Assembly (NCBI RefSeq): GCF_046569735.1
Contig: NZ_JBKICG010000012.1
Coordinates: 30,224 to 54,223, forward strand
Direction: 5' to 3'
DNA: 24,000 nucleotides
Source: Peptococcus simiae
Lineage (GTDB): Bacteria > Bacillota > Peptococcia > Peptococcales > Peptococcaceae
The notes beneath the pieces are model-generated. The model saw nothing but the letters and a program-made list of their open reading frames with translations, did no database searches and was not told where the DNA came from. Both the position numbers and the translations under genes were made by a program. Below are positions 3 to 23,918 of the stretch, piece after piece (position 1 is the stretch's first letter; the number at the start of each line of letters is the position of its first letter).

Positions 3-611
3 AAAGAAATATTAACTAGCTTATCAGAAAGAGCAGACGCAGTTAGAAATAACCAAGTAGAACCAACAGAAGATAATATGCTAAAGATTACAAATGATGG
101 TAAAAAACTTGCCCTTGATCAAAGATTAATAAATCCACTACTTCCAGATGATCCTAATTCAAAGGTAAATGTATGTGTTAAAAACATCTTTTCAATCTGG
201 GATAAGACAAAAGAAAAATCATCGACCCAATTAGTATTTTCAGATATGTCTACACCAAAAGGAGATGGAGAATTTAATATCTATGATGATATTAGAAATA
301 AGCTAGTGAATATGGGAATACCAAAAGAAGAAATAGCCTTTATACACGAAGCAGATACGGATAAACAAAAAGATGAATTGTTCTCTAAGGTAAGAAGAGG
401 AGAAGTAAGAGTATTATTAGGCTCTACTCAAAAAATGGGAGCAGGTACAAATGTACAGAACAAACTAATAGCCTTACACGATTTAGACGTCCCATGGAGA
501 CCGTCTGACCTAGAGCAAAGAAGTGGTAGAATTGTTCGTCAAGGTAATGAAAATGATAAGGTAAATATCTTTAGATATGTAACAGAAAATACATTTGACG
601 CTTATTTATGG
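3..611 (+). CDS. Large SNF2/SF2 helicase-type conjugative-element protein, exon 1 (5'-partial; continues at 2953 after intron removal)
   Basis: The frame is open from the window edge (KEILTSLSERADAVRNNQVEPTEDN precedes the first Met at 78). Helicase C-terminal domain motifs are present: LLGSTQKMGAGTNVQ (motif V-like) and QRSGRIVRQGN (motif VI, QxxGRxxRxG). The exon ends on a codon boundary (TGG = W, 609..611), immediately before GTGCG at 612. The VRHEVA* tail of track ORF 78..632 is read-through into the intron. Confidence 0.85.
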
Positions 612-1187
612 GTGCGACATGAAGTCGCTTAATTTAACTGTTTAGCAAAATGACCAAACCAACTATTCCGTTAGTTGAGCCGAGTATCGACTGCACTTAG
701 GTGTGGTAAGCCGATACTAAAGTAGCCCTACTTGAGGTAAAACCGTGAGGAAATACCGAAACTGCCAGCAACAAGGTGGTTAGGGAGCGAGGCTTGATAA
801 TATGGCTAACATATGTGAACTACTGATAAATGTCGTTAAGGTGAACAGGCTAAAGTTGCTGATAAGCCTGAACCAAAATGGTGTGTAGTCGGATAATCCT
901 TTCCATAGTGGGATTACACGGACAAAAAGACTACCGGCAGAGAGGTAGAGCCTAAGTTATCAACGTTAATTAAGTGAAACATGGTAAGCCTGCACTATTG
1001 CCATAAGGCAAGGCAAATCGTAAGAAATGCTGATAATGGTGCAGGTAAAGGAGAATGGAAAAAGCGAATGCCATCTTGTAATGAGATGGGTAGGGGTTCA
1101 AAATTTGCCCTAACTTGAAAGAGTGCAGACTTCCATTTGGTTTTTAATCACAAGAGAACTTGTAGAATTTTTGAAAGGAGAAAGCAA

Positions 1188-2858: not shown

Positions 2859-2877
2859 TCAGGGCTTATAAAAACTT

Positions 2878-2911
2878 GAGCCGTGTGAGGGGAAACTCTC
2901 ATGCACGGTTC
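2878..2911 (+). ncRNA. Group II intron domain V (catalytic hairpin)
   Basis: GAGCCGTGTGAGGGGAAACTCTCATGCACGGTTC is 34 nt. It forms the paired stem GAGCCGTG.../...CACGGTTC with a GGAA-type loop, at the expected position just after the IEP stop and before domain VI. Confidence 0.85.
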
Positions 2912-2952
2912 TTAGAGGGGAAGGGGATAGTAATATCCTCGACCTACTCGAC

Positions 2953-4320
2953 CAGACAATAGAGAATAAGCAAAAATTTATATCTCAAATTATGACTTCA
3001 AAAACTCCCGTAAGAGTTGCAGAAGATGTTGATGAAGCAAGTCTGTCTTATTCAGAAATTAAGGCTTTGGCTACTGGTAATCCCCTAATTAAAGAAAAAA
3101 TGGATTTAGATAATGAAGTTACAAAATTAAAAATGTTAGAAGCAAACTATAAGTCTAATAAATATAAGCTTGAAGATAAGGTAAATAAAATTTATCCTCA
3201 AAGTATTTTAAAAACTGAAATGGAAATACAAGCAGTTAAAGAAGATATTGCAAGTGTTGAGAAATTAGGAGAAGGAGATAGCAAATTCACTTCAATCAGT
3301 CTTGGTGGAAATAAAATTTTAGATAAGAAAGAGGCTGGAGAAAAGCTATTAGAAGAAATAAAAAAAGTAAAGATAAATGATAGCAAGGTCATTGGTAAAT
3401 ATAGAAATTTAGGCTTACAAGTTTCATATAACTTTATGACTAATACTCACACCTTTAAACTACTAGGAAAAGCAGAATACTTTGGAGAGCTTTCAAACTC
3501 TACTGATGGTAATATAACAAGGCTTGATAATGCAATTGAAAAAATGCCTTCAAGACTTGAAAGGTTAAATCAAAACCTTGAAAACTATAAAGAATCTTTA
3601 GAAAATGCCAAGGTAGAATTAACTAAACCATTTGAAAAAGCAGATGAGTTAAGGGATAAGACACTAAGACTAGCTGAGATTAATAAACTTTTAGATATGG
3701 GAGAAGTAGAAGAATTAGAAAACCAATCACCATTATTAGAAGATTTAAAGAGGGCGATAGTTGATTATTCTAACTATGAGTTTTCAGAATCTAATAGCTA
3801 TGAAGACTTTGATAAACTATATCCTGATTTAAGCCATATAGGACTTGCCTATACAGAAACACCAGATGGTAAGCACTCTATTCAATATGAGGTAAATTTG
3901 GAAGAAAAAACATGGACTCAGTATGTAGATAATGTTGCTATTAGAACAGAATCTTTTGTAGAAGAAGATATATCTAATTCACAAGCTCTTAAAGACATGA
4001 CTGAAGCCATAAAGATGTCAAGTTTTGATGATCTGGTATCAGTAGATGAAGAAGATTTAAAACAAGCCCTGGGACTAGAAATAGATGATGATGGAAACTT
4101 CTATGATCCGCTTGCAAAAGATCTTGATAATGACGGAATACCAGATAGGTATGACAATGATTTTAAAGATAGTGATTACTTTGAATCAACTTATGATGTT
4201 GAGGATAATCTTCACGCAAGGGAAGAGAAACCATCAATATTGGGACAAATATCAAAATTCAAATCAGAAGAAGAAAAAGATAAAAATCAAGAGAAAAACG
4301 AAAAAGGACAAGAAAGATAG
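2953..4320 (+). CDS. Large SNF2/SF2 helicase-type protein, exon 2 (C-terminal region: coiled-coil-like stretch, Asp-rich DxDxDGxxDxxD motif, basic tail)
   Basis: Open frame from CAG at 2953 (QTIENKQKFISQI, then the MTSKTPVRVAEDVDE of track ORF 2992..4320). It is in phase with exon 1 once the intron is removed. Long Glu/Lys-rich helical stretches are present. The C-terminal tail is PSILGQISKFKSEEEKDKNQEKNEKGQER. Confidence 0.8.
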   Translation, partial: QTIENKQKFISQIMTSKTPVRVAEDVDEASLSYSEIKALATGNPLIKEKMDLDNEVTKLKMLEANYKSNKYKLEDKVNKIYPQSILKTEMEIQAVKEDIASVEKLGEGDSKFTSISLGGNKILDKKEAGEKLLEEIKKVKINDSKVIGKYRNLGLQVSYNFMTNTHTFKLLGKAEYFGELSNSTDGNITRLDNAIEKMPSRLERLNQNLENYKESLENAKVELTKPFEKADELRDKTLRLAEINKLLDMGEVEELENQSPLLEDLKRAIVDYSNYEFSESNSYEDFDKLYPDLSHIGLAYTETPDGKHSIQYEVNLEEKTWTQYVDNVAIRTESFVEEDISNSQALKDMTEAIKMSSFDDLVSVDEEDLKQALGLEIDDDGNFYDPLAKDLDNDGIPDRYDNDFKDSDYFESTYDVEDNLHAREEKPSILGQISKFKSEEEKDKNQEKNEKGQER

Positions 4321-4346: not shown

Positions 4347-4363
4347 AGTACAAGGAGGAAATT

Positions 4364-5020
4364 ATGGAATACAAAGATATTAGAGAAAACATAGAAGAAA
4401 TGATGAATGATAACTACAAGGACTTTATAAAAGCACTTGTGAGTATAGAAAAAGGTGTTAATGATGAAAAGGCACTTGAAGAAGTCTATGTTTTATATAT
4501 GAACAATGACACAACAGGTCTACTAAGTGATGACTTTGACTATATGATTGATGACATGAAAGAACAAGGTAAGCTCATTGAAAATACCAATGAACTTGAA
4601 GAAAAAGATGACCTCATAAATCTCGTGGGTAATATAGCTGGCAAAGTAGAAAATCTTGAAAGAGAAAATGCAAATGGAGAAAAGTTTAAAGTAAGTAATT
4701 TTTCAATTGTTTCAAAAGATGATGATGGAAATAAAGTATATACCAATTGTTCAGCCTATGGAGATAAGACAAAAGATTTAGAGAATCTTAAACAAGGAGA
4801 TTTTGTTAAAATCTTCGGGCAAGTTAAAACAAGTATTGATAATAACGGGAAAGAACATAAAAATGCTCGTATTTTGTCTTCTAAGCTCTTAAAAGCAAAA
4901 GAACAAGTAAAGAGTCAATATAAGGATAAAAAGTCCATATTAGGGCAAATAAAAAGCTTTAAGACAGATGACAAAGCTAAGCAAAATAAGAAAGAACATA
5001 GCAAAGGAACAGAGAGATAA
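4364..5020 (+). CDS. OB-fold, SSB-like protein (putative ssDNA-binding protein of the element)
   Basis: Strong RBS (AAGGAGG) 7 nt upstream. The central region NLVGNIAGKVE...FKVSNFSIVSK...VYTNCSAYGDKTKDLENLKQGDFVKIFGQVKTSIDNNGKEHKNARILSSKL follows the SSB OB-fold pattern (LxGxL..., F.I, C.A.G, L.KGD.V...G). The C-terminal tail KSILGQIKSFKTDDKAKQNKKEHSKGTER resembles the tail of the preceding protein. Assigned by eye only. Confidence 0.5.
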   Translation: MEYKDIRENIEEMMNDNYKDFIKALVSIEKGVNDEKALEEVYVLYMNNDTTGLLSDDFDYMIDDMKEQGKLIENTNELEEKDDLINLVGNIAGKVENLERENANGEKFKVSNFSIVSKDDDGNKVYTNCSAYGDKTKDLENLKQGDFVKIFGQVKTSIDNNGKEHKNARILSSKLLKAKEQVKSQYKDKKSILGQIKSFKTDDKAKQNKKEHSKGTER

Positions 5021-5025
5021 ATATC

Positions 5026-5054
5026 GGCGGTCTTCGGACTGCCTTTATTTTTTT
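5026..5054 (+). terminator. Rho-independent terminator (repeat copy 1)
   Basis: GGCGGTC-TTCG-GACTGCC (7-bp stem with one G-U, UUCG loop) followed by TTTATTTTTTT. Confidence 0.8.
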
Positions 5055-5187
5055 GTTTATAAATAACTTGAGTACAAAGTATATTTTAGGTAAAAAAAGA
5101 ACAAATAAAACAAGATAGAGCAGTAAATGATAGAAAATTGTAACCAGAATGATACCGGAAATAGTTTTAAAATAATTTCGAAAGTAG

Positions 5188-5208
5188 TATAATTTCTATA
5201 TAGAAATT
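5188..5208 (+). promoter_or_regulatory. Candidate -10 box (TATAAT 5188..5193) overlapping an 18-bp perfect palindrome; putative MarR operator
   Basis: AATTTCTATATAGAAATT (5191..5208) is a perfect inverted repeat 17 nt upstream of the MarR start codon and overlaps TATAAT. The -35 element is poor. Confidence 0.45.
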
Positions 5209-5224
5209 ACTTTGAGGTGAAATT

Positions 5225-5653
5225 ATGGATTTAAAAAGAGCAATTATGGAATTGCAATGCGAGATGGTTGCAGAAAGGAATTTAGTCAATCCTAAAAATA
5301 TATCATGGTTACAATATGACATACTAAGTCAGGTAAAAAAACTAGAAAAAGTATTGCCCTCAGATTTAAGTATTATTTTAGGAATAACAAGAACAAAGTT
5401 ATCAAAAGCTTTAAAAGGTCTAAAATCTATGGGATATATTGAACAATTTCCTAATAAATTAGATGGTAGGGAGTTATATACTTCACTTTCAAATGAGGGA
5501 AGTAAGCTTTTAGAAGAAATATCAAAAAAGCACAATTCAATTTTTGAAATTGCATCTAAGTCTTTTACTGAAGAAGAACAAGAAATTTTTATAAGACTAT
5601 CGAATATACTATCCAATGAATTGAGAAAGAATAGGTTAGAAAAAGATGAATGA
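5225..5653 (+). CDS. MarR-family transcriptional regulator
   Basis: 142 aa. Winged-HTH pattern LPSDLSIILGITRTKLSKALKGLKSMGYIEQFPNKLDGRELYTSLSNEGSKLL (the D-x-R...LT..G wing). RBS GAGGTGA. The stop overlaps the next start by 8 nt. Confidence 0.8.
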   Translation: MDLKRAIMELQCEMVAERNLVNPKNISWLQYDILSQVKKLEKVLPSDLSIILGITRTKLSKALKGLKSMGYIEQFPNKLDGRELYTSLSNEGSKLLEEISKKHNSIFEIASKSFTEEEQEIFIRLSNILSNELRKNRLEKDE

Positions 5654-7901
5654 TTTCATTTATGTAGAAAAGGCTAGAACAAATAATTTAAAAAATATTA
5701 CAGTAAAAATACCTAAGCATCAAATTGTTGGCGTCACAGGAGTTTCTGGCTCAGGAAAATCTTCATTCGTATTTGATGCCATTGCAGCAGAGTCTCAACG
5801 ACTATTGAATGAAACATATTCTTCCTATGTTCAAAACTTACTTTCTAAATATAAAAAGCCAGATGTTGACTCAATATCTAATCTTCCAGTTTCTTTAGTG
5901 ATTGATCAAAAGAGGATTCGTGGAAATTCAAGGTCAACAGTTGGGACAGTTACCGATATATATTCAGACTTGAGATTACTTTATTCAAGACTAGCAAAAC
6001 CTTTCATCGGATATTCTATGAAGTATTCCTTTAACAATCCTGAAGGAATGTGTAAAAACTGCCAAGGATTAGGTATAGTTCGAGAGATAGATATCAATAA
6101 ATTAATTGACTTTAATAAATCCTTAAATGACAACGCTGTAAAATTTCCTACATTTCAAAATGGAGGATGGAGATTAACCAGGTATACGGAATCAGGGTAT
6201 TTTGACAATGATAAAAAATTATCTGATTACACTAAAAAAGAATTAGACATGCTTTTAAATTCGCCAAAGATAAAGCCTGAAAATCCTAGCAAGAACTGGC
6301 ATAAGACAGCTAAGTATTATGGAATTATTCCTCGTATTATGGAGACCTTTGTAAATGTTCAGCATCCTCAATATCAAGAAGATTTACAAAGGATTTTAAT
6401 AACAAAGACTTGTCCAGTATGTCATGGAGCAAGACTTAACAAAGAGGTTTTAAGTGCCAAGATAAAGGGCAAGTCCATAGCTGACTCTTCTAATATGGAT
6501 ATTATTAATTTGTATAACTTTATAGCTGGTATTAAAGAAGATAAGGTTAAAGAGATCATAAAAGCCTTAAAAGAAAAATTAACTAGCATTTCCCTTGTTG
6601 GCTTAGATTACTTAAAAGTAAATCAAGGAACAAAAAGCCTATCTGGTGGTGAATCTCAAAGAATAAAAATGGTTAAATATCTTAACAGCTCACTATCAGA
6701 TGTTCTCTATATTTTTGATGAACCAAGCGTAGGTCTTCATCCAGAAGATATTAAGGGGATAACAAATATTTTTAAAGCTTTAAAAGATAAAGGAAATTCT
6801 GTTTTATTTGTCGACCACGACCAAGATATGATTAAATGCTCAGATGAAATTATAAATTTTGGAGAAGGCGCAGGAGAAGATGGTGGTAAGGTCACCTTTC
6901 AGGGTACTTACAAAGACTTATTAACATCCAATACTATCACTGCTAAAGCATTTACAAAGAAACATCAAATTAATGAAACTAGGAAAAATTTCGAAGGATA
7001 TTATACTTTAGAAAATGTGTCGAAAAATAACATAAAGAATATATCGGTAAAAATTCCCAAAAAGGCGATAACTCTTGTAACAGGTCTTGCTGGTTCAGGT
7101 AAAAGTACCTTAATAAGGGAAATTTTTACAAGTAAATATCCAGATTCTATTGTTTTAGACCAGAGTCTGCCACAGGCATCGAGTCAGTCAAATATTATCA
7201 CTTATTTAAATATATATGATGAAATCAAGAAACTTTTTGCAAGAGAAAATAGGGTGAATAAAAATCTCTTTTCAGTAAGAGGAAAAGGGGCTTGCCCTGA
7301 ATGCAAGGGAAAAGGAACGATAAAACTTGATTTAGCCTATTTGGGAGACTCTGAACACATATGTGAAAAGTGTGGTGGAAAAAGATTTAATGATAAAACT
7401 CTTTCCTATAAATATAGAGGCAAGGATATTAATGAGATATTCAACTTATCAGTAAAAGATGCTCAAGAAATATTTTTTGATAATTCTAAGATAAAGCAAG
7501 TTTTAAATTCCTTAATGAAATCAAACCTATCATATATTAAACTTGGGCAGACCTTAGACACTTATTCGGGCGGAGAACTTCAAAGATTAAAAATTGCTCA
7601 GATGCTTAGTAAAGAAATAGAAGGGATCATTATCCTAGATGAGCCAACAACAGGACTTCATGAAGCAGATATTGATAAGTTAATGACTCTAGTTCGTGAA
7701 TTGGTTAGTGATGGTAATACATTAATAATAATAGAGCATAATTTATCAGTAATAAGCCAAGCTGACTGGATTGTAGACCTGGGACCTAAAGGAGGTAATC
7801 TTGGAGGAGAATTATTATTTCAAGGTTATCCTATAGATTTTATTAGGTGCAAAGAATCTTATACTTCTAAGAATTTAATAAAGTTTGTGGAGATTTATTA
7901 A
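5646..7901 (+). CDS. UvrA-like ABC ATPase, short (about 750 aa) paralog of the DrrC/Ecm16 type
   Basis: Two ABC cassettes: Walker A GVSGSGKSS and GLAGSGKST; signatures LSGGESQR and YSGGELQR; Walker B LYIFDEPSVGLH and IIILDEPTTGLH. Zn modules CKNCQGLG...CPVCHGAR and CPECKGKG...CEKCGGKR. At 751 aa versus about 940 for canonical UvrA, it is consistent with loss of the UvrB-binding domain. Confidence 0.85.
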   Translation: MNDFIYVEKARTNNLKNITVKIPKHQIVGVTGVSGSGKSSFVFDAIAAESQRLLNETYSSYVQNLLSKYKKPDVDSISNLPVSLVIDQKRIRGNSRSTVGTVTDIYSDLRLLYSRLAKPFIGYSMKYSFNNPEGMCKNCQGLGIVREIDINKLIDFNKSLNDNAVKFPTFQNGGWRLTRYTESGYFDNDKKLSDYTKKELDMLLNSPKIKPENPSKNWHKTAKYYGIIPRIMETFVNVQHPQYQEDLQRILITKTCPVCHGARLNKEVLSAKIKGKSIADSSNMDIINLYNFIAGIKEDKVKEIIKALKEKLTSISLVGLDYLKVNQGTKSLSGGESQRIKMVKYLNSSLSDVLYIFDEPSVGLHPEDIKGITNIFKALKDKGNSVLFVDHDQDMIKCSDEIINFGEGAGEDGGKVTFQGTYKDLLTSNTITAKAFTKKHQINETRKNFEGYYTLENVSKNNIKNISVKIPKKAITLVTGLAGSGKSTLIREIFTSKYPDSIVLDQSLPQASSQSNIITYLNIYDEIKKLFARENRVNKNLFSVRGKGACPECKGKGTIKLDLAYLGDSEHICEKCGGKRFNDKTLSYKYRGKDINEIFNLSVKDAQEIFFDNSKIKQVLNSLMKSNLSYIKLGQTLDTYSGGELQRLKIAQMLSKEIEGIIILDEPTTGLHEADIDKLMTLVRELVSDGNTLIIIEHNLSVISQADWIVDLGPKGGNLGGELLFQGYPIDFIRCKESYTSKNLIKFVEIY

Positions 7902-7916
7902 TAATGAGTGATGTAA

Positions 7917-16329: not shown

Positions 16330-17830
16330 AATAAAAAAATATTTGAAAATAATTTATGAGATAGAAATACACTAAAAATATTAAAAATAAGCATAGGAAA
16401 TAAAGCTAGTGATTTTAGCTTAAAAAATCAACTAACTTTGTGGTACAAATTGGCAATTTTCCTTTAGAAGTTTAAATATAACTCTAACAAGTTTTTTTGC
16501 AGTATGAGAAAGGACGACATAATGATGTTTGCCTTCAGATTTCTTTTTCTGATAATATAAAGCAAAAGTTTCATCATTCATAGCTACAAGCCTTGCAGCA
16601 TTTAAAAGAGCCCATCTTAAATGAGGTGAACCTCTTTTAACCATAGAAACATCCTTAGCGACAAACTTACCTGATTGGTGAGTGCCAGGATCTAGACCAG
16701 CAAATGCAAGTAGTTGACCATCATTATCAAACCTGTTGATGTCAACAATTTCAGCTAAAATGATAGAAGCTAAATTGTAAGAAATACCAGGAATAGTCAT
16801 AAGAGGAGACTGAATTTGATCCATAATAAACTTGATTTTATCTTCTAAAACTTTAAACTTAGAAGAATAAAAATTAATCAAGTCAATAGTTTGAACGAGT
16901 TCAAAGCTAATAGCATCAGAATCAGAACCAATAGACTTAGCTGCAGCTTTTTTAATACAAATAGCCTTATCCTTGCCGTACTTACCACTAGAATTAGCCA
17001 TAAGAACATTAGTAAGTTTAGTAAGATGAGCATTTGCAATAAGCTCTTTAGAAGGAAACATCCTAAGCATAGCCAAAGTAGACTTTTGAGTAACAGAATA
17101 AACACAAGATTCAAGTTCAGGAAAAATAATATTAACAATCCTAGAAATTGAAATCTTAAGCTTAGATAATTGCGCTTTAAGTCTAGATCTGTATCTAGTA
17201 AGTGATTTAAGCTCCGAAATATGATAAGATAAATCTAGGTGGGGTTTAGCATCACTGGCAGATAACATAAGAGCAATTAACTTAGCATCAATTTTATCAG
17301 TTTTAGTCTTTCTAAGCGTATGAGCTTTTCTGAAAAGATTAATTTGAAGTGGATTGAAGATAACAGGATTAAAACCATATTCAACTAAGAAATTGATCAA
17401 GTTTAAAGAATAATGTCCAGTAGCTTCAAGCCCCACTTTTACATTATCAGAAGTCTCAGGCAAAAAAGATAAAAGCAAATTGAAACCATCTATATTATTA
17501 TCAAAAGAAAAAGAATCCTTAATAACATTTCCATCTGAATCACAAATATAGCAATCATGCTTATCCTTAGCAACATCGATACCAACTAAAATCATAAAAA
17601 ATATCCCTTCAAATAAAATTGGCTGTGATATCCACAAAAACTATGTATCGTATCCTTGCTCGATATAAAACGTCAGGCGTTATCTAACTCATAAACAAAT
17701 AAACATAGAAATGTGGTTGTAGCCTTATTAAAATAGTCAAAAGCTATAGGAGACTTAAACAATCCACAAGCCTATGATTATCATATAGTAAAAAATGAAA
17801 AATGAACACTATTTACTATGTGTTCATTAT
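16330..17830 (-). mobile_element. IS110-family insertion sequence (boundaries approximate, not resolved)
   Basis: Contains the DEDD transposase gene plus about 100 nt downstream and about 235 nt upstream of non-coding sequence. It is the only minus-strand gene in the window and splits an otherwise co-oriented RiPP/transporter locus. IS110 elements lack classical terminal inverted repeats, so the ends cannot be set by eye. Confidence 0.35.
16432..17595 (-). CDS. IS110-family (DEDD) transposase/recombinase
   Basis: MILVGIDVAKDKH (first D), GLEATGHY (E), KTDKIDAKLIA (D..D), and the C-terminal domain IPGISYNLASIILAEIVDINRFDNDGQLLAFAGLDPGTHQSGKF. I prefer the ATG at 17595 (RBS GAAGGGA) to the track start at 17637. 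Confidence 0.9.
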   Translation of the reverse strand: MILVGIDVAKDKHDCYICDSDGNVIKDSFSFDNNIDGFNLLLSFLPETSDNVKVGLEATGHYSLNLINFLVEYGFNPVIFNPLQINLFRKAHTLRKTKTDKIDAKLIALMLSASDAKPHLDLSYHISELKSLTRYRSRLKAQLSKLKISISRIVNIIFPELESCVYSVTQKSTLAMLRMFPSKELIANAHLTKLTNVLMANSSGKYGKDKAICIKKAAAKSIGSDSDAISFELVQTIDLINFYSSKFKVLEDKIKFIMDQIQSPLMTIPGISYNLASIILAEIVDINRFDNDGQLLAFAGLDPGTHQSGKFVAKDVSMVKRGSPHLRWALLNAARLVAMNDETFALYYQKKKSEGKHHYVVLSHTAKKLVRVIFKLLKENCQFVPQS

Positions 17831-17922
17831 ACAAGGGGACTCATTGGAGCAAAAGAAATAGGAGTAGAAAATTGTGCTTGGTTTAATAATAAGTTAAATG
17901 ATGAGTTTAGGAGGCTTTTAAT

Positions 17923-18585
17923 ATGAATGTAATCGAAGTAAAAAACATGAGCAAAAACTTTAAAAATAAAAAGCTATTCAACAGTTTTTCTTTAGAAATT
18001 GAAGAAAATACAGTGCATGCAATAGTAGGTCCTAATGGTTCTGGAAAAACTTCGCTTCTGAGAATATTAACGAATTTATATTATGAAGATAATGGAAAAG
18101 TTATCGTTAAGGGAAATCATGCAATGCTTTTAGAGAATGATTATTTGTATGAAGATAAGACTGGAATAGAAAATATAAAATTATATGGTTTATATTTTGG
18201 ATATGAGCCTGTAAATTACAAAAAATATTCTGAGCTTCTTCAAATAACAAATGATTTAGATAGGAAAGTATCAACATATTCTAAGGGAATGAAAAGGAAA
18301 TTATCTTTATTAATTATTGTAATGATGAATAGGGAGATAATATTTTTAGATGAGGTAACTAGTGGGGTAGATCCAATATCAAGAGTTGAGATTAGAAAAC
18401 TCATAAAATTACTAAAGGATGAAGGTAAGACCATAGTAATTACTAGTCATGACCTCTCAGAAATTGAAAAGATAGCTGATAAAGTATCTATGATTAAATC
18501 AGGAGAGTTACTTTTTACAAAGAATATTGGAGAAATTAAGGGAGAGAGCTTAGAAGATTTATTTATAGAGGAAGGTACAAAATGA
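17923..18585 (+). CDS. ABC transporter ATP-binding protein
   Basis: Walker A GPNGSGKTS, signature YSKGMKRKL, Walker B IIFLDEVTSGVD, H-loop TSHD. RBS TAGGAGG. ATGA overlap with the next gene. Confidence 0.9.
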   Translation: MNVIEVKNMSKNFKNKKLFNSFSLEIEENTVHAIVGPNGSGKTSLLRILTNLYYEDNGKVIVKGNHAMLLENDYLYEDKTGIENIKLYGLYFGYEPVNYKKYSELLQITNDLDRKVSTYSKGMKRKLSLLIIVMMNREIIFLDEVTSGVDPISRVEIRKLIKLLKDEGKTIVITSHDLSEIEKIADKVSMIKSGELLFTKNIGEIKGESLEDLFIEEGTK

Positions 18586-19295
18586 AAAATAAGATGAATA
18601 TTAATAGAGCCTGTAGGTACTATTTAAGTAAAGACAAGGATTTTATTTTAAATTTATTATTATTTACTTTGATTTCTCTTGGCTTTATTTTTTTACTATA
18701 TAAGGGGATGTTTGATTCTAGAGGAAATGATTATATTATATTAATGCTATATGTACTAATGCTTGGAATTTCATTAATTATGTCTAATTCTATGGTTGTT
18801 AATTTGACAGTCAAGGATAAACTAAATAAACGTATTGAATTTATTCTAGCATCAGGAATTAATATAAAAGATGTGATTAAAGCCTATGCAATAGAAATGT
18901 GGAGACTATCTTCTATTGTTCCATTTTTATTATTTTTCCTAACTTATGTCCTAGTAGACTTTAAAATCGAATTTAAGTGGATTGTAGGCATATTTGTTAC
19001 AATGATAGGAATGACTTACTTTGAAATACTATTTTTTAACCTTATAAGCTTATCCCAAAAAAACTTCAAGTTTTTCAAAAATATAGTTTTCTTTGGAACA
19101 ACAATTTTAATTTACATGATAGGCACTTTTTCAGAGAAGATTCTATCATTAATAGAAAGATATAATCTAAATCTTATTTATATCATTCTAGGTATAAATA
19201 TTGGCTTAGGATTAATCTTTGCAGTTTTTTCTATGAAAGATTTGTCTAAGATAAACAATGAATCTATAATTAATAAAGAAGGGTCATGGTCATGA
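18582..19295 (+). CDS. ABC-2-type transporter permease (multi-pass membrane protein)
   Basis: 237 aa with about six hydrophobic segments. Translationally coupled to the ATPase on one side and the second permease on the other. Confidence 0.65.
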   Translation: MKNKMNINRACRYYLSKDKDFILNLLLFTLISLGFIFLLYKGMFDSRGNDYIILMLYVLMLGISLIMSNSMVVNLTVKDKLNKRIEFILASGINIKDVIKAYAIEMWRLSSIVPFLLFFLTYVLVDFKIEFKWIVGIFVTMIGMTYFEILFFNLISLSQKNFKFFKNIVFFGTTILIYMIGTFSEKILSLIERYNLNLIYIILGINIGLGLIFAVFSMKDLSKINNESIINKEGSWS

Positions 19296-19930
19296 AGTTA
19301 GTAATTAACGATTTAAGAAAGCTTTTAGATAAAAATGCCTTATTAATGTCTCTTATGGCACTAATCTGCTCCTTTATGGCTCTATTTTTTGCTGATGGAG
19401 GAAGCCAAGAGATAAATAAGGTCATCAATACAATTAAAATTGATGGGATTTTAATACTTTTTGTAATGTTTGGAGTAGAACTCGCTAAAAATACCTTGGT
19501 ATCAGATAAGATTAGCAAAAAGCTTGAATTTTTACTTGCAAATGGACTTTCTATAAAAAAAATTCTAGCCAAATATTTGTTTAGTATTTATTTAGGGGCT
19601 TTGATAATAGTCCTTCCAAGCCTTGTATTAAACCTAGTTAAACTTGATCTAAGCTTAACCATTGGTATAAACTTAATTTTATCAAGTTTTCTTTACACTC
19701 TAATAATAGTTTTTGTAATTCTTAATACTAGAAACATGAATAAAATAAATTCTCTCCAAATTCGGTTGATAGGACTATCTTTAGCTATTATGATAACATC
19801 TGCCATTGTATATAATTTTACAAACTCCTTTACATTTTATTTTCTTACTAAGTTTATTATCTTAGCTTCAATTATTATATTTTTGGGTATTAATATTAAT
19901 AAAGAAAGGATTGTAATTAGTTACTATTAG
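19286..19930 (+). CDS. ABC-2-type transporter permease, second subunit
   Basis: 214 aa, multi-pass hydrophobic. Its start overlaps the preceding gene by 10 nt. Confidence 0.65.
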   Translation: MVMKLVINDLRKLLDKNALLMSLMALICSFMALFFADGGSQEINKVINTIKIDGILILFVMFGVELAKNTLVSDKISKKLEFLLANGLSIKKILAKYLFSIYLGALIIVLPSLVLNLVKLDLSLTIGINLILSSFLYTLIIVFVILNTRNMNKINSLQIRLIGLSLAIMITSAIVYNFTNSFTFYFLTKFIILASIIIFLGININKERIVISYY

Positions 19931-19932
19931 AT

Positions 19933-21090
19933 ATGTATAAGAAATTAGAAAAAATTGTAATAAGCCATTTAATGATAATTTTATTTTGGGGTCTTCTTTT
20001 TAAAAACAATTTGTTAGTAAAAGAGGGCCCAATTTTAAATGCAGTTTCACTTATATTATTTTTCACCTTGTATGGACTTATATACACAGAAATTTCGAAT
20101 AAAAAAATACCGGAATTTGTTTCCATTTTGGTTGTTTTTACTTCTCTTTTGCCGTTGAGCCTTATTTTAATAAATAATCTACACTATAAAGTCTCCTTTG
20201 CCATTATTAGTATTGCTTCAACATGCCTGTTTATTAAAAAATACATGGATATAGAGAGTTTTAAATATATAAACATCTTACCAATATCAAGAAAATCTAC
20301 ACAAACATTTACTATCAAACTAGTATTTTTTATTTTTGTGGTAATTTACTTATTTGATATAGATACGGCAATGATAAATATATTTACTCAAATAGTTTTT
20401 CTTATTACAGAATTTTTCTTTATCTTATTTTTAAAGGAGAAAGAGTTAGCTTTTGAGAAAACCTTCAAACTTTATTACCTATCAGACTATATGGCGAGCG
20501 AAAGAGATGAATTTGCAAGAATTATTCATGACGATATTTTGCAAGATATATATGCAAGTAAAAATTACTTATCTTCAAAAAATCCTGATATAGAATATTC
20601 TAAAAATATCCTAAGAGAACTTGAGGAAAAAGCACGAAATATAATGAAATTCTACCAATCTTCTTTATTTGAAAAAGCAAATTTGGAAACATCTCTATTA
20701 GCTATATTTGATAATGTAGCTTCACTATATCCAGATAAAAATATTGAAATTACTAAATATATCGATAGTGATATGACAGAGGATAAAAGATTAATTAGGT
20801 TGATTTCAATAATATCAAAAGAACTTATAAATAATGTATATAAGCATTCCGATGCTAAATATTTATCTTATAAACTTTATAAAAAAGGAAATTTTGTATA
20901 TATAGAAATGGAAAGTGATGGCGCAAGATCAGATGATTTTAATAAAATTAAGGAATCTAAAAGAGGGGTTTTGCTGCTTAAACTTTTGATAGATTCAAAT
21001 TCAGGAAATATTTCCTATGGATTAAACAAGGGAATACTTACAACAAGAGTTAGCTTGGAGGTGGAAAAAGATGAAAATTATTTTGCTTGA
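19933..21090 (+). CDS. Membrane sensor histidine kinase, HisKA_3 (NarL-partner) type
   Basis: The N-terminal ~170 aa is hydrophobic with several TM segments and no large extracytoplasmic loop. H-box ERDEFARIIHDDILQDI. N-box SKELINNVYKHS. The G-boxes are degenerate (ESDGAR..., KRGVLLLKLL). Confidence 0.75.
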   Translation: MYKKLEKIVISHLMIILFWGLLFKNNLLVKEGPILNAVSLILFFTLYGLIYTEISNKKIPEFVSILVVFTSLLPLSLILINNLHYKVSFAIISIASTCLFIKKYMDIESFKYINILPISRKSTQTFTIKLVFFIFVVIYLFDIDTAMINIFTQIVFLITEFFFILFLKEKELAFEKTFKLYYLSDYMASERDEFARIIHDDILQDIYASKNYLSSKNPDIEYSKNILRELEEKARNIMKFYQSSLFEKANLETSLLAIFDNVASLYPDKNIEITKYIDSDMTEDKRLIRLISIISKELINNVYKHSDAKYLSYKLYKKGNFVYIEMESDGARSDDFNKIKESKRGVLLLKLLIDSNSGNISYGLNKGILTTRVSLEVEKDENYFA

Positions 21091-21664
21091 TGACCATAAA
21101 TTATTTGGTGGATCTCTTAAGATGCTTTTAGAAGAGCAAGAAGAAATTTCATGTGCCTATGTATCAAAAGCCCAAGAGTTTTTAAAAATGATAGAAAAAG
21201 AAATCTACGATATTTTCTTAATTGACATAAATTTAAAAGATGATAAGACTGGTCTTGATTTAATTAAAGATTTGATAGATGAAAATCCCAGACAAAAGAT
21301 AATAGTTTTAACATCTTATGACTTAGATAATTACAAGGATATGGCTTTTAAGTTAGGAGTAAAGGATTTTATAAATAAGTCTGTTGAAATAGAAGAACTC
21401 TTAGCAAGAATAAATAATGTATATAAAGGAAACTATAAGAAAATAGATAAATACATTGTTGATCCACTGACTAAACGAGAGATAGAAGTACTGGAAGAAT
21501 TAATAAAGGGGTCAAGCAAAAAAGATATTGCCAAGAAGCTTTTTATCAGTGAGAGGACCCTTTATAATCATATAGCAAATATATATGATAAATTACAATC
21601 TAAAAATATTGTTGAAGCCTATAATAAGGCTATGGAGCTTGGCTATATATATCCGGTTATGTAA
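21071..21664 (+). CDS. Response regulator, NarL/LuxR family
   Basis: Receiver domain: MKIILLDDH..., FLIDINL (phospho-acceptor Asp context), LTSY, KLGVKDFINK. C-terminal LuxR HTH: LTKREIEVLEELIKGSSKKDIAKKLFISERTLYNHIANIYDKL. Overlaps the kinase gene by 20 nt. Confidence 0.9.
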   Translation: MKIILLDDHKLFGGSLKMLLEEQEEISCAYVSKAQEFLKMIEKEIYDIFLIDINLKDDKTGLDLIKDLIDENPRQKIIVLTSYDLDNYKDMAFKLGVKDFINKSVEIEELLARINNVYKGNYKKIDKYIVDPLTKREIEVLEELIKGSSKKDIAKKLFISERTLYNHIANIYDKLQSKNIVEAYNKAMELGYIYPVM

Positions 21665-21795
21665 GATTATATGATTAAAACTTATTTGGAGATTATATTT
21701 TATGATTTATGAAAACTCTCATAGATATAAAAACTGAGATTAAACATCTTGCCAACTTATTATAATCGTAGAAATAAAAAAAGTGAGGGATGTTT

Positions 21796-21954
21796 ATGTT
21801 AAAACAAGTTCTAGATATAATAATTTTATATTTACTAATATATTTGTTTGGAGCATATATTATTTTTCTAGTGAAGTCTGTGATATATGGAAAAGAAAAA
21901 GTTTATGGTTGTTCAAAGCCTACACTAATGGAAAAAATTTTTATAGGATGCTAA
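21796..21954 (+). CDS. Hypothetical small membrane peptide (52 aa), absent from the ORF track
   Basis: GAGG (21785..21788) lies 7 nt upstream of the ATG. Translation: MLKQVLDIIILYLLIYLFGAYIIFLVKSVIYGKEKVYGCSKPTLMEKIFIGC, with one clear TM helix. It competes with the GTG-initiated 65-aa track ORF in another frame, which looks like AT-rich noise. Confidence 0.3.
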   Translation: MLKQVLDIIILYLLIYLFGAYIIFLVKSVIYGKEKVYGCSKPTLMEKIFIGC

Positions 21955-22096
21955 CAAGTGTTTCATACTTTAAAAATTAATATTGATTTTAAATTTGATA
22001 GGATTGTACTCTTATTAAAATTTTGCAGTAGCTTATATTAAATTAACAGTATAGAAGCAGCAAAAAGATAGAAATTTGGTGGAAAACACAAATATT

Positions 22097-22126
22097 GGTG
22101 GTCTTCGGACTGCCTTTATTTTTTTT
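22097..22126 (+). terminator. Rho-independent terminator (repeat copy 3)
   Basis: GGTGGTC-TTCG-GACTGCC (same hairpin, one C-to-T change that keeps pairing as G-U) followed by TTTATTTTTTTT. About 20-40 nt upstream shows weaker similarity to the sequence preceding copies 1 and 2. Confidence 0.75.
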
Positions 22127-22157
22127 GTATTTATGTTTTAGAAAAGTGAATAATATT

Positions 22158-22186
22158 ATGAAAAAAGTGAAGGTTTATGATATAAT
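22158..22186 (+). promoter_or_regulatory. Candidate sigma-A promoter with extended -10 for the XRE/methyltransferase operon
   Basis: ATGAAA (-35, 4/6), a 17-nt spacer, then TGaTATAAT (extended -10, 22178..22186). It lies about 37 nt upstream of the XRE start. Confidence 0.5.
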
Positions 22187-22222
22187 ATAACTGATACAGA
22201 ATTCATGAATGGAGAGATAGTC

Positions 22223-22438
22223 ATGTTAAAAATCAGCTATAAAAAGCTATTTAAAAAAATGATTGACCTAGATTTAAATAATACAGAATTAATGGAAAAA
22301 ACAAATATTAGTAGAAGTACATTTTATAAAATGAAAAATGGGGAGAATATTACAACTGACGTATTGTTAAGAATATGTGAAGGATTAAATTGTAATCTTT
22401 ACGAAATTATGGAGTTAGTTAAAGATGAAAATAATTGA
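22223..22438 (+). CDS. XRE/Cro-C1-type HTH regulator (possible R-M controller protein)
   Basis: MLKISYKKLFKKMIDLDLNNTELMEKTNISRSTFYKMKNGENITTDVLLRICEGLNCNLYEIMEL is a typical short HTH_XRE pattern. RBS GGAGAG precedes the ATG at 22223, preferred over 22205. Overlaps the MTase start by 14 nt. Confidence 0.8.
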   Translation: MLKISYKKLFKKMIDLDLNNTELMEKTNISRSTFYKMKNGENITTDVLLRICEGLNCNLYEIMELVKDENN

Positions 22439-23918
22439 TTATGTTTTAAATAAGACAAATGAATATATTAAGATTGCATCTAAAGAAACTCGAAAAAGAA
22501 TAGGACAATTTTTTACTAGTAAAGAAACAGCAATATTCATGGCATCTTTATTTGACTTAAATATTAAAAGAGATGAGATATCTATTCTTGACCCAGGAGC
22601 TGGCTCTGGAATTCTTTCTGCGGCACTAATTCAGAGAATTATTGATAGCAAAATGATAAAAAAGATAAATTTAACATGTTATGAAACAGATGAAGACATT
22701 GTAAATTTGTTGGAAGCTAATTTATATTGGGTAAAGGAAAATTCAAATATAGATATAGAATATAGAATTATAGATAAGAATTATATTATAAGTCAGGATT
22801 ATGAATACAATAATTTCTTAGGAATGTATAACAATGTTAAAAAATATGATTTAGTTATATGTAATCCACCATATAAGAAAATTGGTAAAAAAGACAGAGA
22901 AGCAATTATAATGTCAGATGTTTGTTATGGTTCTCCTAATTTATATTTTCTTTTTATGCAAATGTCAAGTTTCAATCTAAAAGAAAATGGGGAACTGGTA
23001 TTTATTGTTCCAAGATCTTGGACATCTGGAGCATACTTTAAAAAATTTAGAGAAGAATTTTTAGAAGAAATGTCATTGGAGCATATACATTTATTTACGA
23101 GTAGAGATAAGGTTTTTGATAAAGAATCTGTCTTACAAGAAACTATGATAATAAAGGCTAAAAAGACAAGAATACCCCCTGAATTTATAACAATCACATC
23201 TAATAATGGAAATTTTGATTTTAAAAATACAACAATTTTTGAAGCAGATTATGATTTAGTTGTTTCTAAAAAAAATAAATATATATATTTAATTACAAAT
23301 GAAGAAGAAGCAAATACAATAAAACAAGTAAAAGAGTGGAAAGATACTTTGCCAAGCTTGGGATTAAAAATGAAAACAGGATTAACTGTGGATTTTAGAA
23401 ATAGTGAAGTATTGAGAGATAGATCTGAAGAAGAAGCAGTACCCTTATTCTATTCTCAGCATATAAAGGATGGAAAAGTTGTTTTTCCAATGGGTAAGGA
23501 TAATGAATATATTTTAAATTCAAAAAAGGGGTTATTACAAGAGAATAAAAATTATTTATTTGTAAAGAGATTTACATCTAAAGAAGAAAAGAGACGACTA
23601 CAATGTGGAGTCTATTTAGCAAAAAAATATCCAGAGTATGAAAAGATAAGCACTCAAAATAAATTAAATTTTATAACTGGATTTGAAAATTTATCTGAGT
23701 GTTTAGTATATGGATTATATGTGGTTCTAAATTCCACTTTATATGATCAGTATTATAGAATTTTAAATGGTTCAACTCAAGTTAATTCAACAGAAATTAA
23801 TTCTATGCCAGTTCCTCCACTAGAATACATTGAGAATATGGGAAAAGATTTGATAAAGGTAAAAGATATGTCAGAAAAAACATGTGATGAAATATTAGGG
23901 AGATATATTTATGTCTAA
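22425..23918 (+). CDS. Type II N6-adenine DNA methyltransferase, gamma class (Eco57I/TaqI/PstI-like)
   Basis: Motif I ILDPGAGSGILS lies upstream of motif IV VICNPPY (this order is the gamma class). N-terminal GQFFTSKETAIFMA. At 497 aa it is similar in size to M.PstI/M.BsuBI. Confidence 0.85.
   Translation: MKIIDYVLNKTNEYIKIASKETRKRIGQFFTSKETAIFMASLFDLNIKRDEISILDPGAGSGILSAALIQRIIDSKMIKKINLTCYETDEDIVNLLEANLYWVKENSNIDIEYRIIDKNYIISQDYEYNNFLGMYNNVKKYDLVICNPPYKKIGKKDREAIIMSDVCYGSPNLYFLFMQMSSFNLKENGELVFIVPRSWTSGAYFKKFREEFLEEMSLEHIHLFTSRDKVFDKESVLQETMIIKAKKTRIPPEFITITSNNGNFDFKNTTIFEADYDLVVSKKNKYIYLITNEEEANTIKQVKEWKDTLPSLGLKMKTGLTVDFRNSEVLRDRSEEEAVPLFYSQHIKDGKVVFPMGKDNEYILNSKKGLLQENKNYLFVKRFTSKEEKRRLQCGVYLAKKYPEYEKISTQNKLNFITGFENLSECLVYGLYVVLNSTLYDQYYRILNGSTQVNSTEINSMPVPPLEYIENMGKDLIKVKDMSEKTCDEILGRYIYV

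What the first reader, a model, noticed from the sequence alone, without database searches (positions are those of the whole stretch)
4916..22126. Three direct copies of a gene-3'-end-plus-terminator sequence delimit two cargo modules: a serial accretion site
Seen: the last ~110 nt of the SSB-like gene plus its terminator (4916..5054) recur at 14483..14623. That second copy is about 75-80% identical by eye, no longer coding, and has an identical GGCGGTC-TTCG-GACTGCC hairpin and T tract. A shorter copy recurs at about 22080..22126, with one stem change that preserves pairing. The intervals between copies are two functionally self-contained modules: the MarR-UvrA2-PPTase-NRPS block of about 9.4 kb, and the RiPP-ABC-TCS block of about 7.5 kb. 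After the third copy the backbone resumes with R-M genes.

Inference: cargo has been added repeatedly at one site, each event regenerating or duplicating the target. This is the pattern left by site-specific integration into a gene's 3' end, or by recombination between sister elements carrying different cargo at the same hotspot. Neither module contains a recombinase apart from the unrelated IS110, so the mechanism is not explained by what is visible.
Basis: partly seen in the sequence, partly recalled or inferred. Interest (0 to 1): 0.75.

Follow-up and report, generated by a model that had tools for sequence, protein, structure and literature searches.

The report
Terminator scars marking stacked cargo modules
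A conjugative element carries three copies of one gene-end-plus-terminator sequence; they mark borders where cargo gene blocks were stacked one after another, most likely by recombination between sister elements and not by a dedicated integrase.

Summary
Copy 1 (4909-5056) and copy 2 (14478-14625) are 81% identical over 152 nt (E 1e-30). Copy 3 keeps only a ~40-nt core (22085-22127) with the same hairpin and T tract.

The window is the cargo hotspot of a Tn1806/pAPRE01-type conjugative element, apparently from Peptococcus simiae. In 76 related genome loci the same terminator follows the SSB-like gene in about 60. Eleven loci have further same-strand copies within 10 kb.

- Empty sites: SSB-T-XRE-defence genes-relaxase.
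- A single-module variant: L082 is the window without module 1 and without the IS110.
- Other multi-module arrays.

The repeated stretch ranges from 7 nt to the whole SSB gene (~690 nt), so it is not a fixed att core. Its right edge is nearly always the end of the T tract. Left and right flanks reassort at the terminator: 12 left classes, 34 right classes, 41 combinations. Divergence jumps there from 73-77% to 94-99% identity.

Best reading: serial accretion by ectopic homologous recombination between sister elements. The SSB 3' end plus terminator serves as portable homology and is kept because it terminates transcription. Site-specific integration is not supported. This is a moderately interesting variant of known ICE hotspots.

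The parts
78..4320 (+). Conserved backbone upstream of the hotspot. It is the 3' part of a giant helicase gene (78-632 and 2992-4320), split by a group II intron (RT/maturase ORF 1137-2858).
   Evidence: Pfam Helicase_C and RVT_1/RVT_N/GIIM. pAPRE01 is annotated the same way: helicase-related protein, ltrA, hypothetical protein, hypothetical protein.
4364..5020 (+). SSB-like gene (218 aa), the last conserved backbone gene before the cargo array.
   Evidence: 1565 homologues, 90-96% identical in Peptoniphilaceae. Sources name it DNA-binding or single-stranded DNA-binding protein, and PF00436 is precomputed for homologues about 65% identical. It has no Pfam, NCBIfam or PDB match of its own.
4909..5056 (+). 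Repeat copy 1: the last 112 nt of the SSB-like gene, then hairpin 5026-5043 and its T tract.
5057..14477 (+). Cargo module 1: promoter-like site 5166-5193, MarR (5225-5653), UvrA-like paralogue (5646-7901), PPTase (7917-8558), stand-alone A domain (8573-10219), NRPS C-A-T-R (10225-14328).
   Evidence: Pfam, NCBIfam, promoter scan. It is absent from all 76 related genome loci. The NRPS has one 100% match (Peptococcus simiae) and one 56% relative elsewhere.
14478..14625 (+). Repeat copy 2: a decayed, non-coding remnant of the SSB 3' end (14478-14594), then hairpin 14595-14612 and its T tract.
   Evidence: The remnant is 73-82% identical to all SSB 3' ends, while T and the DNA to its right are 94-99% identical to L035, L082 and L013.
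14626..22084 (+). Cargo module 2: precursor peptide (14696-14821), rSAM-SPASM maturase (15034-16317), ABC ATPase (17923-18585), two membrane proteins (18582-19930), histidine kinase (19933-21090), LuxR response regulator (21071-21664), chimeric orf65 (21783-21980).
   Evidence: Pfam, translation. The same module follows an intact SSB-T in L013 and L082, and a partial SSB copy in L035. It is also present in pAPRE01.
16306..17824 (-). IS110-family insertion (transposase 16432-17637) inside the 3' end of the rSAM gene. It plays no part in the repeat system.
   Evidence: Pfam DEDD_Tnp_IS110 and Transposase_20. The uninterrupted site is seen in L013 and L082.
22085..22127 (+). Repeat copy 3: a few decayed bases of the SSB 3' UTR, then hairpin 22097-22114 (GGTGGTC variant) and its T tract.
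   Evidence: The same junction occurs in L082 and L018.
22128..24000 (+). Distal module: extended -10 promoter-like site 22158-22186, XRE regulator (22205-22438) and Eco57I-type methyltransferase (22425-23918). In relatives a BsuBI/PstI-type endonuclease, SIR2-STALD and ThsB-TIR (Thoeris-like) genes follow, then the convergent relaxase/MobC genes.
   Evidence: Pfam. Contexts L079-L088. This right flank is joined to three different left flanks at T.

Best explanation
The window is the main cargo hotspot of a Tn1806/pAPRE01-type conjugative element. The hotspot lies between the SSB-like gene and the convergent relaxase genes.

T, the intrinsic terminator 9 nt after the SSB stop codon, is the fixed left edge of the variable DNA. 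Arrays grow when two sister elements with different cargo recombine out of register. An SSB-3'-end/T copy that ends one element's cargo pairs with the SSB-T that precedes the other element's cargo. The product is SSB-T-cargoA-(ssb remnant)-T-cargoB.

Redundant SSB copies then decay or are shortened by deletion. The hairpin and T tract persist because each module needs a terminator to insulate it from the next, separately regulated module (MarR, two-component system, XRE).

Applied to the window: an L082-like element (SSB-T-module 2-T-XRE-MTase) received module 1 together with an old remnant at its right end, through a crossover in or beside T.

Shown: the repeats, the family-wide pattern, the empty, single-module and multi-module variants, reassortment of flanks at T, and the divergence jump at T.

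Inferred: that the joining is RecA-type (or element-assisted) homologous recombination, and that T terminates transcription.

Not explained: how each new kind of foreign cargo was first joined exactly at the end of the T tract.
For: 1. Family-wide recurrence. The hairpin follows the SSB gene in about 60 of 76 genome loci. Eleven loci plus the window and L082 have two or three same-strand copies.
2. Variable left limit of the downstream copies: -7, -10, -14, -31, -71, -117, -311, about -400, and about -690 (the whole gene). The right limit is mostly +27 to +30, the end of the T tract. Fourteen loci have two to three tblastn SSB matches.
3. Copy pairs differ by 3-22%. L015, L039 and L054 carry full SSB copies that are 86-89% and 91-94% identical to the window's protein. 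This points to different parental elements, not in-place duplication.
4. Variants. L082 is the window without module 1 and IS110. L013 is SSB-T-module 2. L035 is SSB-T-other cargo-ssb'(-393)-T-module 2. Empty sites SSB-T-XRE occur in about 10 loci, and L020 shows SSB-T-XRE-KAP/QueC-like/TatD genes-relaxase.
5. Reassortment at T. The 95 copies fall into 12 left classes, 34 right classes and 41 combinations. The XRE-B flank is joined to three different left flanks. One cargo end (class L03) is joined to XRE-A in L008 and to XRE-B in L018. The tail of module 2 plus the copy-3 remnant plus T is followed by a different flank in L097.
6. Divergence jump at copy 2. The remnant is 73-77% identical to L035, L082 and L013, against 94-99% for T plus the non-coding 70 nt to its right (Fisher p 2e-4 to 5e-4).
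7. Opportunity. Nine genomes contributed two or more loci.
8. Terminator function. T has a GC-rich 7-bp stem, a TTCG loop and a U tract, with z-scores of -5.7, -5.2 and -3.4. The three copies are the best + strand terminator-like sites in the region. Among 17 variants, 97.5% of cells stay paired, and the L079/L084 lineage shows changes on both sides of two pairs.
9. pAPRE01's roughly 42-kb array contains at least three decayed remnants, including one on each side of module 2.
Against: - At least 16 different sequences begin within a few bases of the end of the T tract. Homologous recombination reshuffles existing T-cargo junctions but does not explain why new foreign DNA was joined at that exact point so many times. 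Selection to keep the terminator explains only a lower bound on the junction position.
- The shared core can be as short as about 40 nt, which is near the lower limit for efficient RecA-dependent recombination (general knowledge, not tested here).
- No donor carrying module 1 plus the remnant was found, so the specific event proposed for the window is inferred by analogy with other modules.
- No experimental evidence exists on recA dependence or on termination at T.
Confidence: 0.6

Rival explanations
1. T is a true recombination site, like an att or attC site. An element-encoded recombinase, or a hairpin-recognising enzyme acting on the transferred single strand, inserts circular cargo cassettes precisely at the end of the terminator. 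This would resemble SCC elements stacking at rlmH, ICE/CIME accretion, or integron cassettes.
For: - The right-hand boundary is sharp and shared by at least 16 cargo classes.
- The 18-nt palindrome is nearly invariant: 68 of the 95 copies scored are identical, although the neighbouring SSB genes are only 77-96% identical in protein.
- All copies lie on the same strand.
- Full-length second SSB copies start at one point, the 3' arm of another hairpin, in two junction classes.
- Large serine recombinases exist in the relative pAPRE01.
Against: - The duplicated length ranges from 7 to about 690 nt, with no constant core on the left side.
- Some right flanks share a further 25-30 nt and then diverge, so the boundaries are nested and not all at one point.
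- No recombinase gene lies in or beside any module in the window except the IS110, which sits mid-module.
- Tn1806-like ICEs are reported to integrate at short G-rich repeats in snf2/MTase genes, not at T (PMC12942858, PMC13006639).
- The hairpin tolerates wobble and compensatory changes, as a structure would and a protein-read sequence would not.
- The hairpin is destroyed in pAPRE01 in front of an otherwise intact module 2.
Confidence: 0.12
2. Junctions at T arise from structure-driven illegitimate recombination. The terminator hairpin stalls or dislodges a polymerase during conjugative or rolling-circle replication. Template switching to a co-resident DNA then joins foreign cargo at the T tract. 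This could be the step that creates new T-cargo junctions, with homologous recombination spreading them afterwards.
For: - Many different junctions sit precisely at the end of the T tract.
- A junction also occurs at the 3' arm of the hairpin after the helicase gene.
- A-rich and T-rich tracts flank the stem and extend it.
- No recombinase is needed.
Against: - There is no direct evidence.
- It does not by itself produce duplicated SSB 3' ends of 100-700 nt.
- It cannot be told apart from selection on junction position using sequence data alone.
Confidence: 0.2
3. The three copies are unrelated, and only look alike because they are generic terminators in AT-rich DNA.
For: Copy 3 shares little beyond the hairpin and T tract.
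Against: - Three matches against none expected in shuffles.
- Copies 1 and 2 align at E 1e-30 and include about 115 nt of coding-derived sequence.
- The same 27-mer occurs in about 90 copies across genera, always in this context.
Confidence: 0.01

Closest known systems
Variable-region hotspots of ICEs: HS1-HS5 of SXT/R391 (PMC2791158) and VR1-VR4 of Tn1806-like ICEs (PMC13006639; 'putative hot spots' in PMC3055811)
   Same: - Variable adaptive DNA sits at an intergenic site of a conserved conjugative backbone.
- The conserved/variable boundary is identical across family members although the contents differ. SXT hotspot 2 starts right after the traA stop codon.
- In SXT the mechanism behind that precision is unresolved: recombination system or selection.
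   Different: Here the left-boundary sequence (gene 3' end plus terminator) is repeated inside the hotspot and marks the border of each stacked module, which records the order of accretion. I found no description of this for Tn1806-family elements in the papers searched. Whether this site equals one of VR1-VR4 could not be checked, because the figures are not held.
Hybrid ICE formation by recombination between tandem or co-resident SXT/R391 elements (PMC2786100)
   Same: Related elements in one cell recombine within shared sequence and yield mosaics with new cargo combinations. Co-resident elements are common here too, in nine genomes.
   Different: - The SXT exchanges described are in-register and swap cargo. 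Here out-of-register pairing of a repeated short unit adds cargo.
- No Bet/Exo-type genes were seen in the window. The role of the SSB-like protein is unknown.
Serial site-specific accretion at a gene's 3' end: composite SCC arrays at rlmH/orfX, and ICESt3 with CIMEs at fda (recalled from general knowledge, not read here)
   Same: Direct repeats derived from the 3' end of a gene delimit tandem modules, and the intact gene stays at one end.
   Different: - Those repeats are att cores of fixed length, made by Ccr or tyrosine recombinases.
- Here the repeat length ranges from 7 to 690 nt, and no associated recombinase was found.
Integron cassette arrays
   Same: A same-strand array of units, each bounded by an imperfect-palindrome hairpin.
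   Different: - No IntI, attI or Pc was found.
- The units are multi-gene operons with their own promoters and regulators.
- The hairpin is a canonical terminator with a U tract.
- The left limits of the repeat vary.
Phage 'morons': independent promoter-gene-terminator units inserted between backbone genes (general knowledge)
   Same: Each module is a self-contained transcription unit that ends in an intrinsic terminator and sits between backbone genes.
   Different: - The modules here are 7-9 kb operons.
- They all share one and the same terminator, derived from the upstream backbone gene.

Membership tests
ICE variable-region hotspot (SXT/R391 HS type; Tn1806-family VR) | The site lies between conserved backbone genes of a conjugative element family. 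| tested here: met
   The order helicase, SSB-like gene, then array is conserved in pAPRE01 (with upstream T4SS-type genes: CD1107, VirB4-like, VirD4-like) and in 76 genome loci. The convergent relaxase/MobC genes close the array.
ICE variable-region hotspot (SXT/R391 HS type; Tn1806-family VR) | Family members share the same conserved/variable boundary while their contents differ. | tested here: met
   There are 34 right-flank classes after T, and at least 16 distinct sequences start at the end of the T tract.
Ectopic (unequal) homologous recombination between sister elements | Repeats of variable length and variable identity, including whole-gene copies of different alleles. | tested here: met
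   Left limits run from -7 to -690, and copy identity from 78% to 97%. L015, L039 and L054 carry two full SSB copies of clearly different identity to the window's protein, 86-89% against 91-94%.
Ectopic (unequal) homologous recombination between sister elements | A break in sequence divergence, and reassortment of flanks, at the repeat. | tested here: met
   Identity jumps from 73-77% to 94-99% across copy 2. There are 41 left-right combinations at T, and L097 adds another.
Ectopic (unequal) homologous recombination between sister elements | Dependence on RecA or on an element-encoded annealing system. | not testable with these tools
   This needs genetics.
Site-specific accretion at a gene 3' end (SCC / ICE-CIME type) | A direct repeat of constant length (att core) at every module border. 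| tested here: not met
   Repeat length varies from 7 to about 690 nt between borders and between elements.
Site-specific accretion at a gene 3' end (SCC / ICE-CIME type) | A tyrosine or serine recombinase carried by the modules or known to act on the site. | tested here: not met
   Modules 1 and 2 hold none apart from a mid-module IS110. The large serine recombinases of pAPRE01 are distant from the array. Tn1806-like ICEs are reported to integrate at short G-rich repeats in snf2/MTase genes (PMC12942858). The rest of the window's own element was not available.
Site-specific accretion at a gene 3' end (SCC / ICE-CIME type) | Excision of modules as circles. | not testable with these tools
   No circle-junction contig appeared among the fetched loci. 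Only PCR or long reads would settle it.
Integron | An IntI integrase with attI and a Pc promoter next to the array, and promoterless cassettes. | tested here: not met
   No integrase was found in the window or in the 10-kb flanks of relatives that were annotated. The modules have their own regulators and promoter-like sites.
Rho-independent (intrinsic) terminator | A GC-rich stem-loop followed by a U tract, placed just after a stop codon or at an operon end, with pairing conserved. | tested here: met
   T has a 7-bp stem with 4-5 GC pairs, a TTCG loop and a T tract. Folding energies are -12.7 to -19.6 kcal/mol with z-scores of -3.4 to -5.7. Among 17 variants, 97.5% of cells are paired and two pairs show changes on both sides. 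Termination itself was not measured.
oriT copy (relaxase-mediated oriT-oriT recombination) | T resembles the inverted repeat and nick region next to the element's relaxase/MobC genes. | tested here: not met
   The inverted repeats beside MobC in L080 (AATGGAGCA...TGCTCCATT and GTAAGTGT-CCGT-ACACTTAC) bear no resemblance to T.

The most novel reading that the evidence does not exclude
The SSB-3'-end/terminator hairpin is a true cargo-capture site of a Gram-positive conjugative element family. It would be a hairpin recognised, perhaps on the transferred single strand, by an enzyme not yet identified. That enzyme would join foreign operons exactly at the end of the T tract, making this an integron-like acquisition platform for whole operons encoding bacteriocin/RiPP, NRPS, ABC-transporter and defence functions.
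Probability: 0.1. Interest if true: 0.85.

Novelty: new variant of a known kind. Interest (0 to 1): 0.45.

Why it matters
Tn1806/pAPRE01-type elements move between Peptoniphilaceae, streptococci, Lactobacillus iners and other human-associated bacteria. They carry resistance, bacteriocin and defence genes. This work locates their main cargo site to the nucleotide. It also shows that module borders are marked by recognisable scars. That gives two things:
- a simple way to parse these arrays in genomes and metagenomes: search for the 27-mer and read the modules between hits;
- a concrete, testable model for how composite elements accumulate cargo.

The same question, why hotspot boundaries are so precise, was left open for SXT/R391. 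With at least 16 independent junctions at one terminator, this family is a good system in which to answer it.

Tried and rejected
- Exact-protein look-ups of the window's SSB-like protein, MarR and NRPS found no contig, so the window's own contig and the rest of its element could not be read.
- The only NRPS relative (56% identity, L089) lies in an unrelated context without SSB or T. It says nothing about how module 1 moves.
- A metagenome scan for the copy-2-specific remnant found nothing.
- I considered that the GGCGGTC stem variant shared by copies 1 and 2 shows gene conversion within the element. The variant also occurs in 12 metagenome contigs in several contexts, so it is weak evidence at best.
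- I tested whether copy 2 came recently from another SSB lineage. It is equally distant from all of them (73-82%), so it is an old remnant.
- I tested whether T is a copy of oriT. It is not similar.
- The IS110 as the agent is rejected. It sits mid-module inside the rSAM gene, and relatives have the same module without it.
- The recurrence of the -117 limit (window copy 2 and L004 copy 3) and of the -400 limit was examined. The -400 cases share one chimeric junction, so they are one event that spread. The two -117 cases have unrelated upstream DNA, and the window's limit is blurred by decay. No conclusion was drawn.
- The literature searches found hotspot descriptions, but none of a repeated terminator boundary in this family.

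Full report
**1.

Reading the three places and a self-BLASTN confirm the repeat. Positions 4909-5056 align with 14478-14625 at 80.9% over 152 columns (E 1.4e-30). The stretch covers the last ~112 nt of the 218-aa SSB-like gene (4364-5020), its 3' UTR, a hairpin GGCGGTC-TTCG-GACTGCC and a T tract.

The 27-mer hairpin plus T tract occurs three times on the + strand (5026, 14595, 22097). None is expected in shuffles.

Copy 3 keeps only about 40 nt (22085-22127). Its stem GGTGGTC replaces a C-G pair with U.G. Copy 2 is non-coding.

The three hairpins are the best + strand terminator-like sites between 4000 and 23999. Each ends a transcription unit. They fold at -19.6, -19.1 and -12.7 kcal/mol, well below shuffled controls.

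**2. What the region is**

Pfam and NCBIfam give the following map:
- the 3' part of a giant helicase gene, split by a group II intron;
- the SSB-like gene;
- module 1: MarR, a UvrA-like paralogue, PPTase, a stand-alone A domain, a C-A-T-R NRPS;
- module 2: a 41-aa Cys-rich peptide, an rSAM-SPASM enzyme, an inserted IS110, an ABC ATPase, two membrane proteins, a histidine kinase, a LuxR-type regulator;
- XRE and an Eco57I-type methyltransferase.

The NRPS is 100% identical to a Peptococcus simiae protein.

The backbone matches plasmid pAPRE01 of Anaerococcus prevotii at 88.6% up to the end of the terminator and no further. It also matches a Streptococcus agalactiae conjugative element. [quoted passage not shown] PMC13006639 defines four variable regions in Tn1806-like ICEs. 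Neither paper mentions a repeated boundary sequence.

**3. The pattern is family-wide**

A scan of one genome per species returned 76 loci, with SSB-like proteins 77-96% identical over the full gene.
- In about 60 loci the hairpin sits 9 nt after the stop codon. Of the 95 copies scored, 68 have the same 18-nt stem-loop.
- Eleven loci carry further same-strand copies within 10 kb, and L004 has three.
- Fourteen loci have two to three tblastn SSB matches.
- pAPRE01's array is about 42 kb, runs up to the convergent relaxase, and is made mostly of RiPP, rSAM and ABC-transporter operons. It contains at least three decayed remnants, one on each side of its copy of module 2. The one in front has lost the hairpin.

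**4.

- Empty sites: about ten loci read SSB-T-XRE promoter. In L020 the whole interval is XRE, a KAP NTPase, an unassigned ORF, a QueC-like protein and a TatD DNase, then the convergent relaxase.
- Single module: L082 matches the window in the order SSB gene (94%), T, module 2 (97% and 90%), T with the same GGTGGTC stem, XRE-MTase (95.5%). It has no module 1 and no IS110. L013 is likewise SSB-T-module 2.
- Other stacks: L035 has SSB-T-different cargo-partial SSB (-393)-T-module 2.
- Downstream of XRE-MTase, relatives carry a BsuBI/PstI-type endonuclease and SIR2-STALD plus ThsB-TIR genes, then relaxase/MobC. XRE-MTase is therefore itself a variable module (34 right-flank classes exist), not backbone.

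**5. Anatomy of the repeat across the family**

- The left limit of downstream copies is -7, -10, -14, -31, -71, -117, -311, about -400 or about -690 (the full gene) relative to the hairpin.
- The right limit is mostly +27 to +30, the end of the T tract.
- Copy pairs are 78-97% identical. L015, L039 and L054 carry two full SSB copies, 86-89% and 91-94% identical to the window's protein. They look like different alleles.
- At least 16 different sequences begin at the end of the T tract. Some right flanks share a further 25-30 nt, including a promoter, before diverging. The mosaic boundaries are therefore nested and not all at one point.

**6. T is a crossover point**

I clustered the 400 nt to the left and to the right of 95 copies. 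This gave 12 left classes, 34 right classes and 41 combinations.
- The XRE-B flank of the window is joined to three different left flanks: a -210 remnant with a compensated stem in L079-L088, a -31 remnant in L018, and -7 in the window and L082.
- One cargo end is joined to XRE-A in L008 and to XRE-B in L018.
- The tail of module 2 plus the copy-3 remnant plus T is followed by a different flank in L097.

At copy 2, the remnant is 73-77% identical to the SSB 3' ends of L035, L082 and L013. T plus the next 70 non-coding nt are 94-99% identical to the same loci (p 2e-4 to 5e-4). The remnant is equally distant (73-82%) from every sampled SSB end. It is therefore old. It travelled with the right end of module 1, or of a predecessor, and was joined to a recently shared module 2 in or beside T.

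**7. Mechanism**

The data fit out-of-register homologous recombination between sister elements, with the SSB 3' end plus T as portable homology. They fit better than a site-specific reaction, for these reasons:
- the repeat length is variable;
- the copies are heterologous alleles;
- the boundaries are nested;
- the modules carry no recombinase;
- nine genomes contributed two or more loci, so sister elements do share cells.

The hairpin behaves as a structure under selection. Among 17 variants, 97.5% of cells stay paired. The L079/L084 lineage has C-G changed to U-A and G-C changed to A-U. This matches the need to insulate modules that have their own regulators.

T is not like the presumed oriT next to MobC. 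The IS110 is a later insertion into the rSAM gene.

What remains unexplained is why so many unrelated cargos were first joined exactly at the end of the T tract. Selection, hairpin-driven template switching and an unknown enzyme all remain possible. The same puzzle was noted for SXT/R391 hotspots (PMC2791158).

**8. Comparison and verdict**

This is an ICE cargo hotspot with precise boundaries, a known kind of feature. Recombination between co-resident ICEs is also known (PMC2786100).

The new aspect is that the boundary unit, a gene 3' end plus its terminator, is reiterated inside the hotspot. It acts both as a scar recording serial accretion and as the likely homology that drives it. It is seen across many genera.

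It fails the tests for att-type accretion and for integrons: no constant core, and no associated recombinase.

I rate it a new variant of a known kind, with interest 0.45. The integron-like reading keeps about 10% probability.

Noticed in passing
window 4228-4320 and 4928-5020: The giant helicase and the SSB-like protein end in the same ~35-aa tail (K-[PK]-SILGQI-xx-FK ... KG-x-ER*). The tail is conserved in every relative checked, and a related tail ends a protein just upstream of the SSB gene in the S. agalactiae element. A shared C-terminal signal, for example for transfer through the conjugation channel, is a guess. The -117 limit of copy 2 roughly matches the start of this tail.
   Followed up: partly
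window 633-2991 (RT/maturase ORF 1137-2858): A group II intron splits the giant helicase gene. pAPRE01 has the same arrangement, and PMC3055811 reports a reverse transcriptase inside the methylase gene of Tn1806.
   Followed up: partly
window 16306-17824: An IS110-family element is inserted in the last ~25 codons of the rSAM-SPASM maturase gene and changes its C-terminus. L013 and L082 show the uninterrupted site (...GCATTATAAG|AGGGCTCATTGG...). Identity of module 2 to relatives also drops across this point, from 95-98% to about 90%.
   Followed up: partly
window 21665-22084 versus L082 8738-9894: Relative to L082, the window lacks about 670 nt holding a 227-aa gene between the response regulator and copy 3. 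What remains is a probably meaningless 65-aa ORF (21783-21980).
   Followed up: partly
window 5225-14328: Module 1 is a very rare gene cluster. In 5.8 billion protein clusters the NRPS has only its own 100% match and one 56% relative. It combines a C-A-T-reductase NRPS, a stand-alone A domain and a PPTase with a UvrA-like paralogue that lacks the first ~125 residues. The UvrA-like protein suggests self-resistance to a DNA-targeting product. That is inference only.
   Followed up: partly
L079-L088 about 9700-14600; L020 10791-15732: The module next to the relaxase is a defence island led by an XRE regulator. In the window's lineage it holds an Eco57I-type MTase, a BsuBI/PstI-type endonuclease, and SIR2-STALD plus ThsB-TIR (Thoeris-like) genes. 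In L020 it holds a KAP NTPase, a QueC-like protein and a TatD DNase (Qat-like).
   Followed up: partly
window 4321-4341; L007 about 18610; L015, L039, L054 and L055 about 9970: A hairpin (GGAGAGC-GAAAG-GCTCTCC) follows the helicase stop codon. Full-length second copies of the SSB gene begin at the same point, CTCCTTATTTAGTAC (the 3' arm of this hairpin), in two junction classes with unrelated upstream DNA. So the SSB 'cassette' is bounded by hairpins on both sides. In L007 the CTCCTT also serves, on the other strand, as the ribosome-binding site of a divergent gene, so the coincidence may be trivial.
   Followed up: partly
L079-L088 about 9893 (and the equivalent positions): A diverged terminator copy, GGTGATC-TTTG-GATTACC, keeps all seven pairs through changes on both sides of two pairs. 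The window's copy 3 (GGTGGTC...GACTGCC) looks like an intermediate.
   Followed up: yes
L096 about 46-347 (minus strand): A scar in which an internal SSB fragment is joined directly to the T tract and leader of module 2, and then to the sequence that normally follows the response regulator. All the module 2 genes are gone. This looks like the deletion of a module that left its ends behind.
   Followed up: no
NC_013164.1 (pAPRE01) 93300-115566 and 1-19000: The array in pAPRE01 is about 42 kb, almost entirely bacteriocin/RiPP operons (sactipeptide, class III lanthipeptides, CXXX-repeat rSAM) with their transporters and two-component systems. A second NRPS cluster with a PPTase and an AMP-binding protein lies beyond the relaxase.
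   Followed up: no
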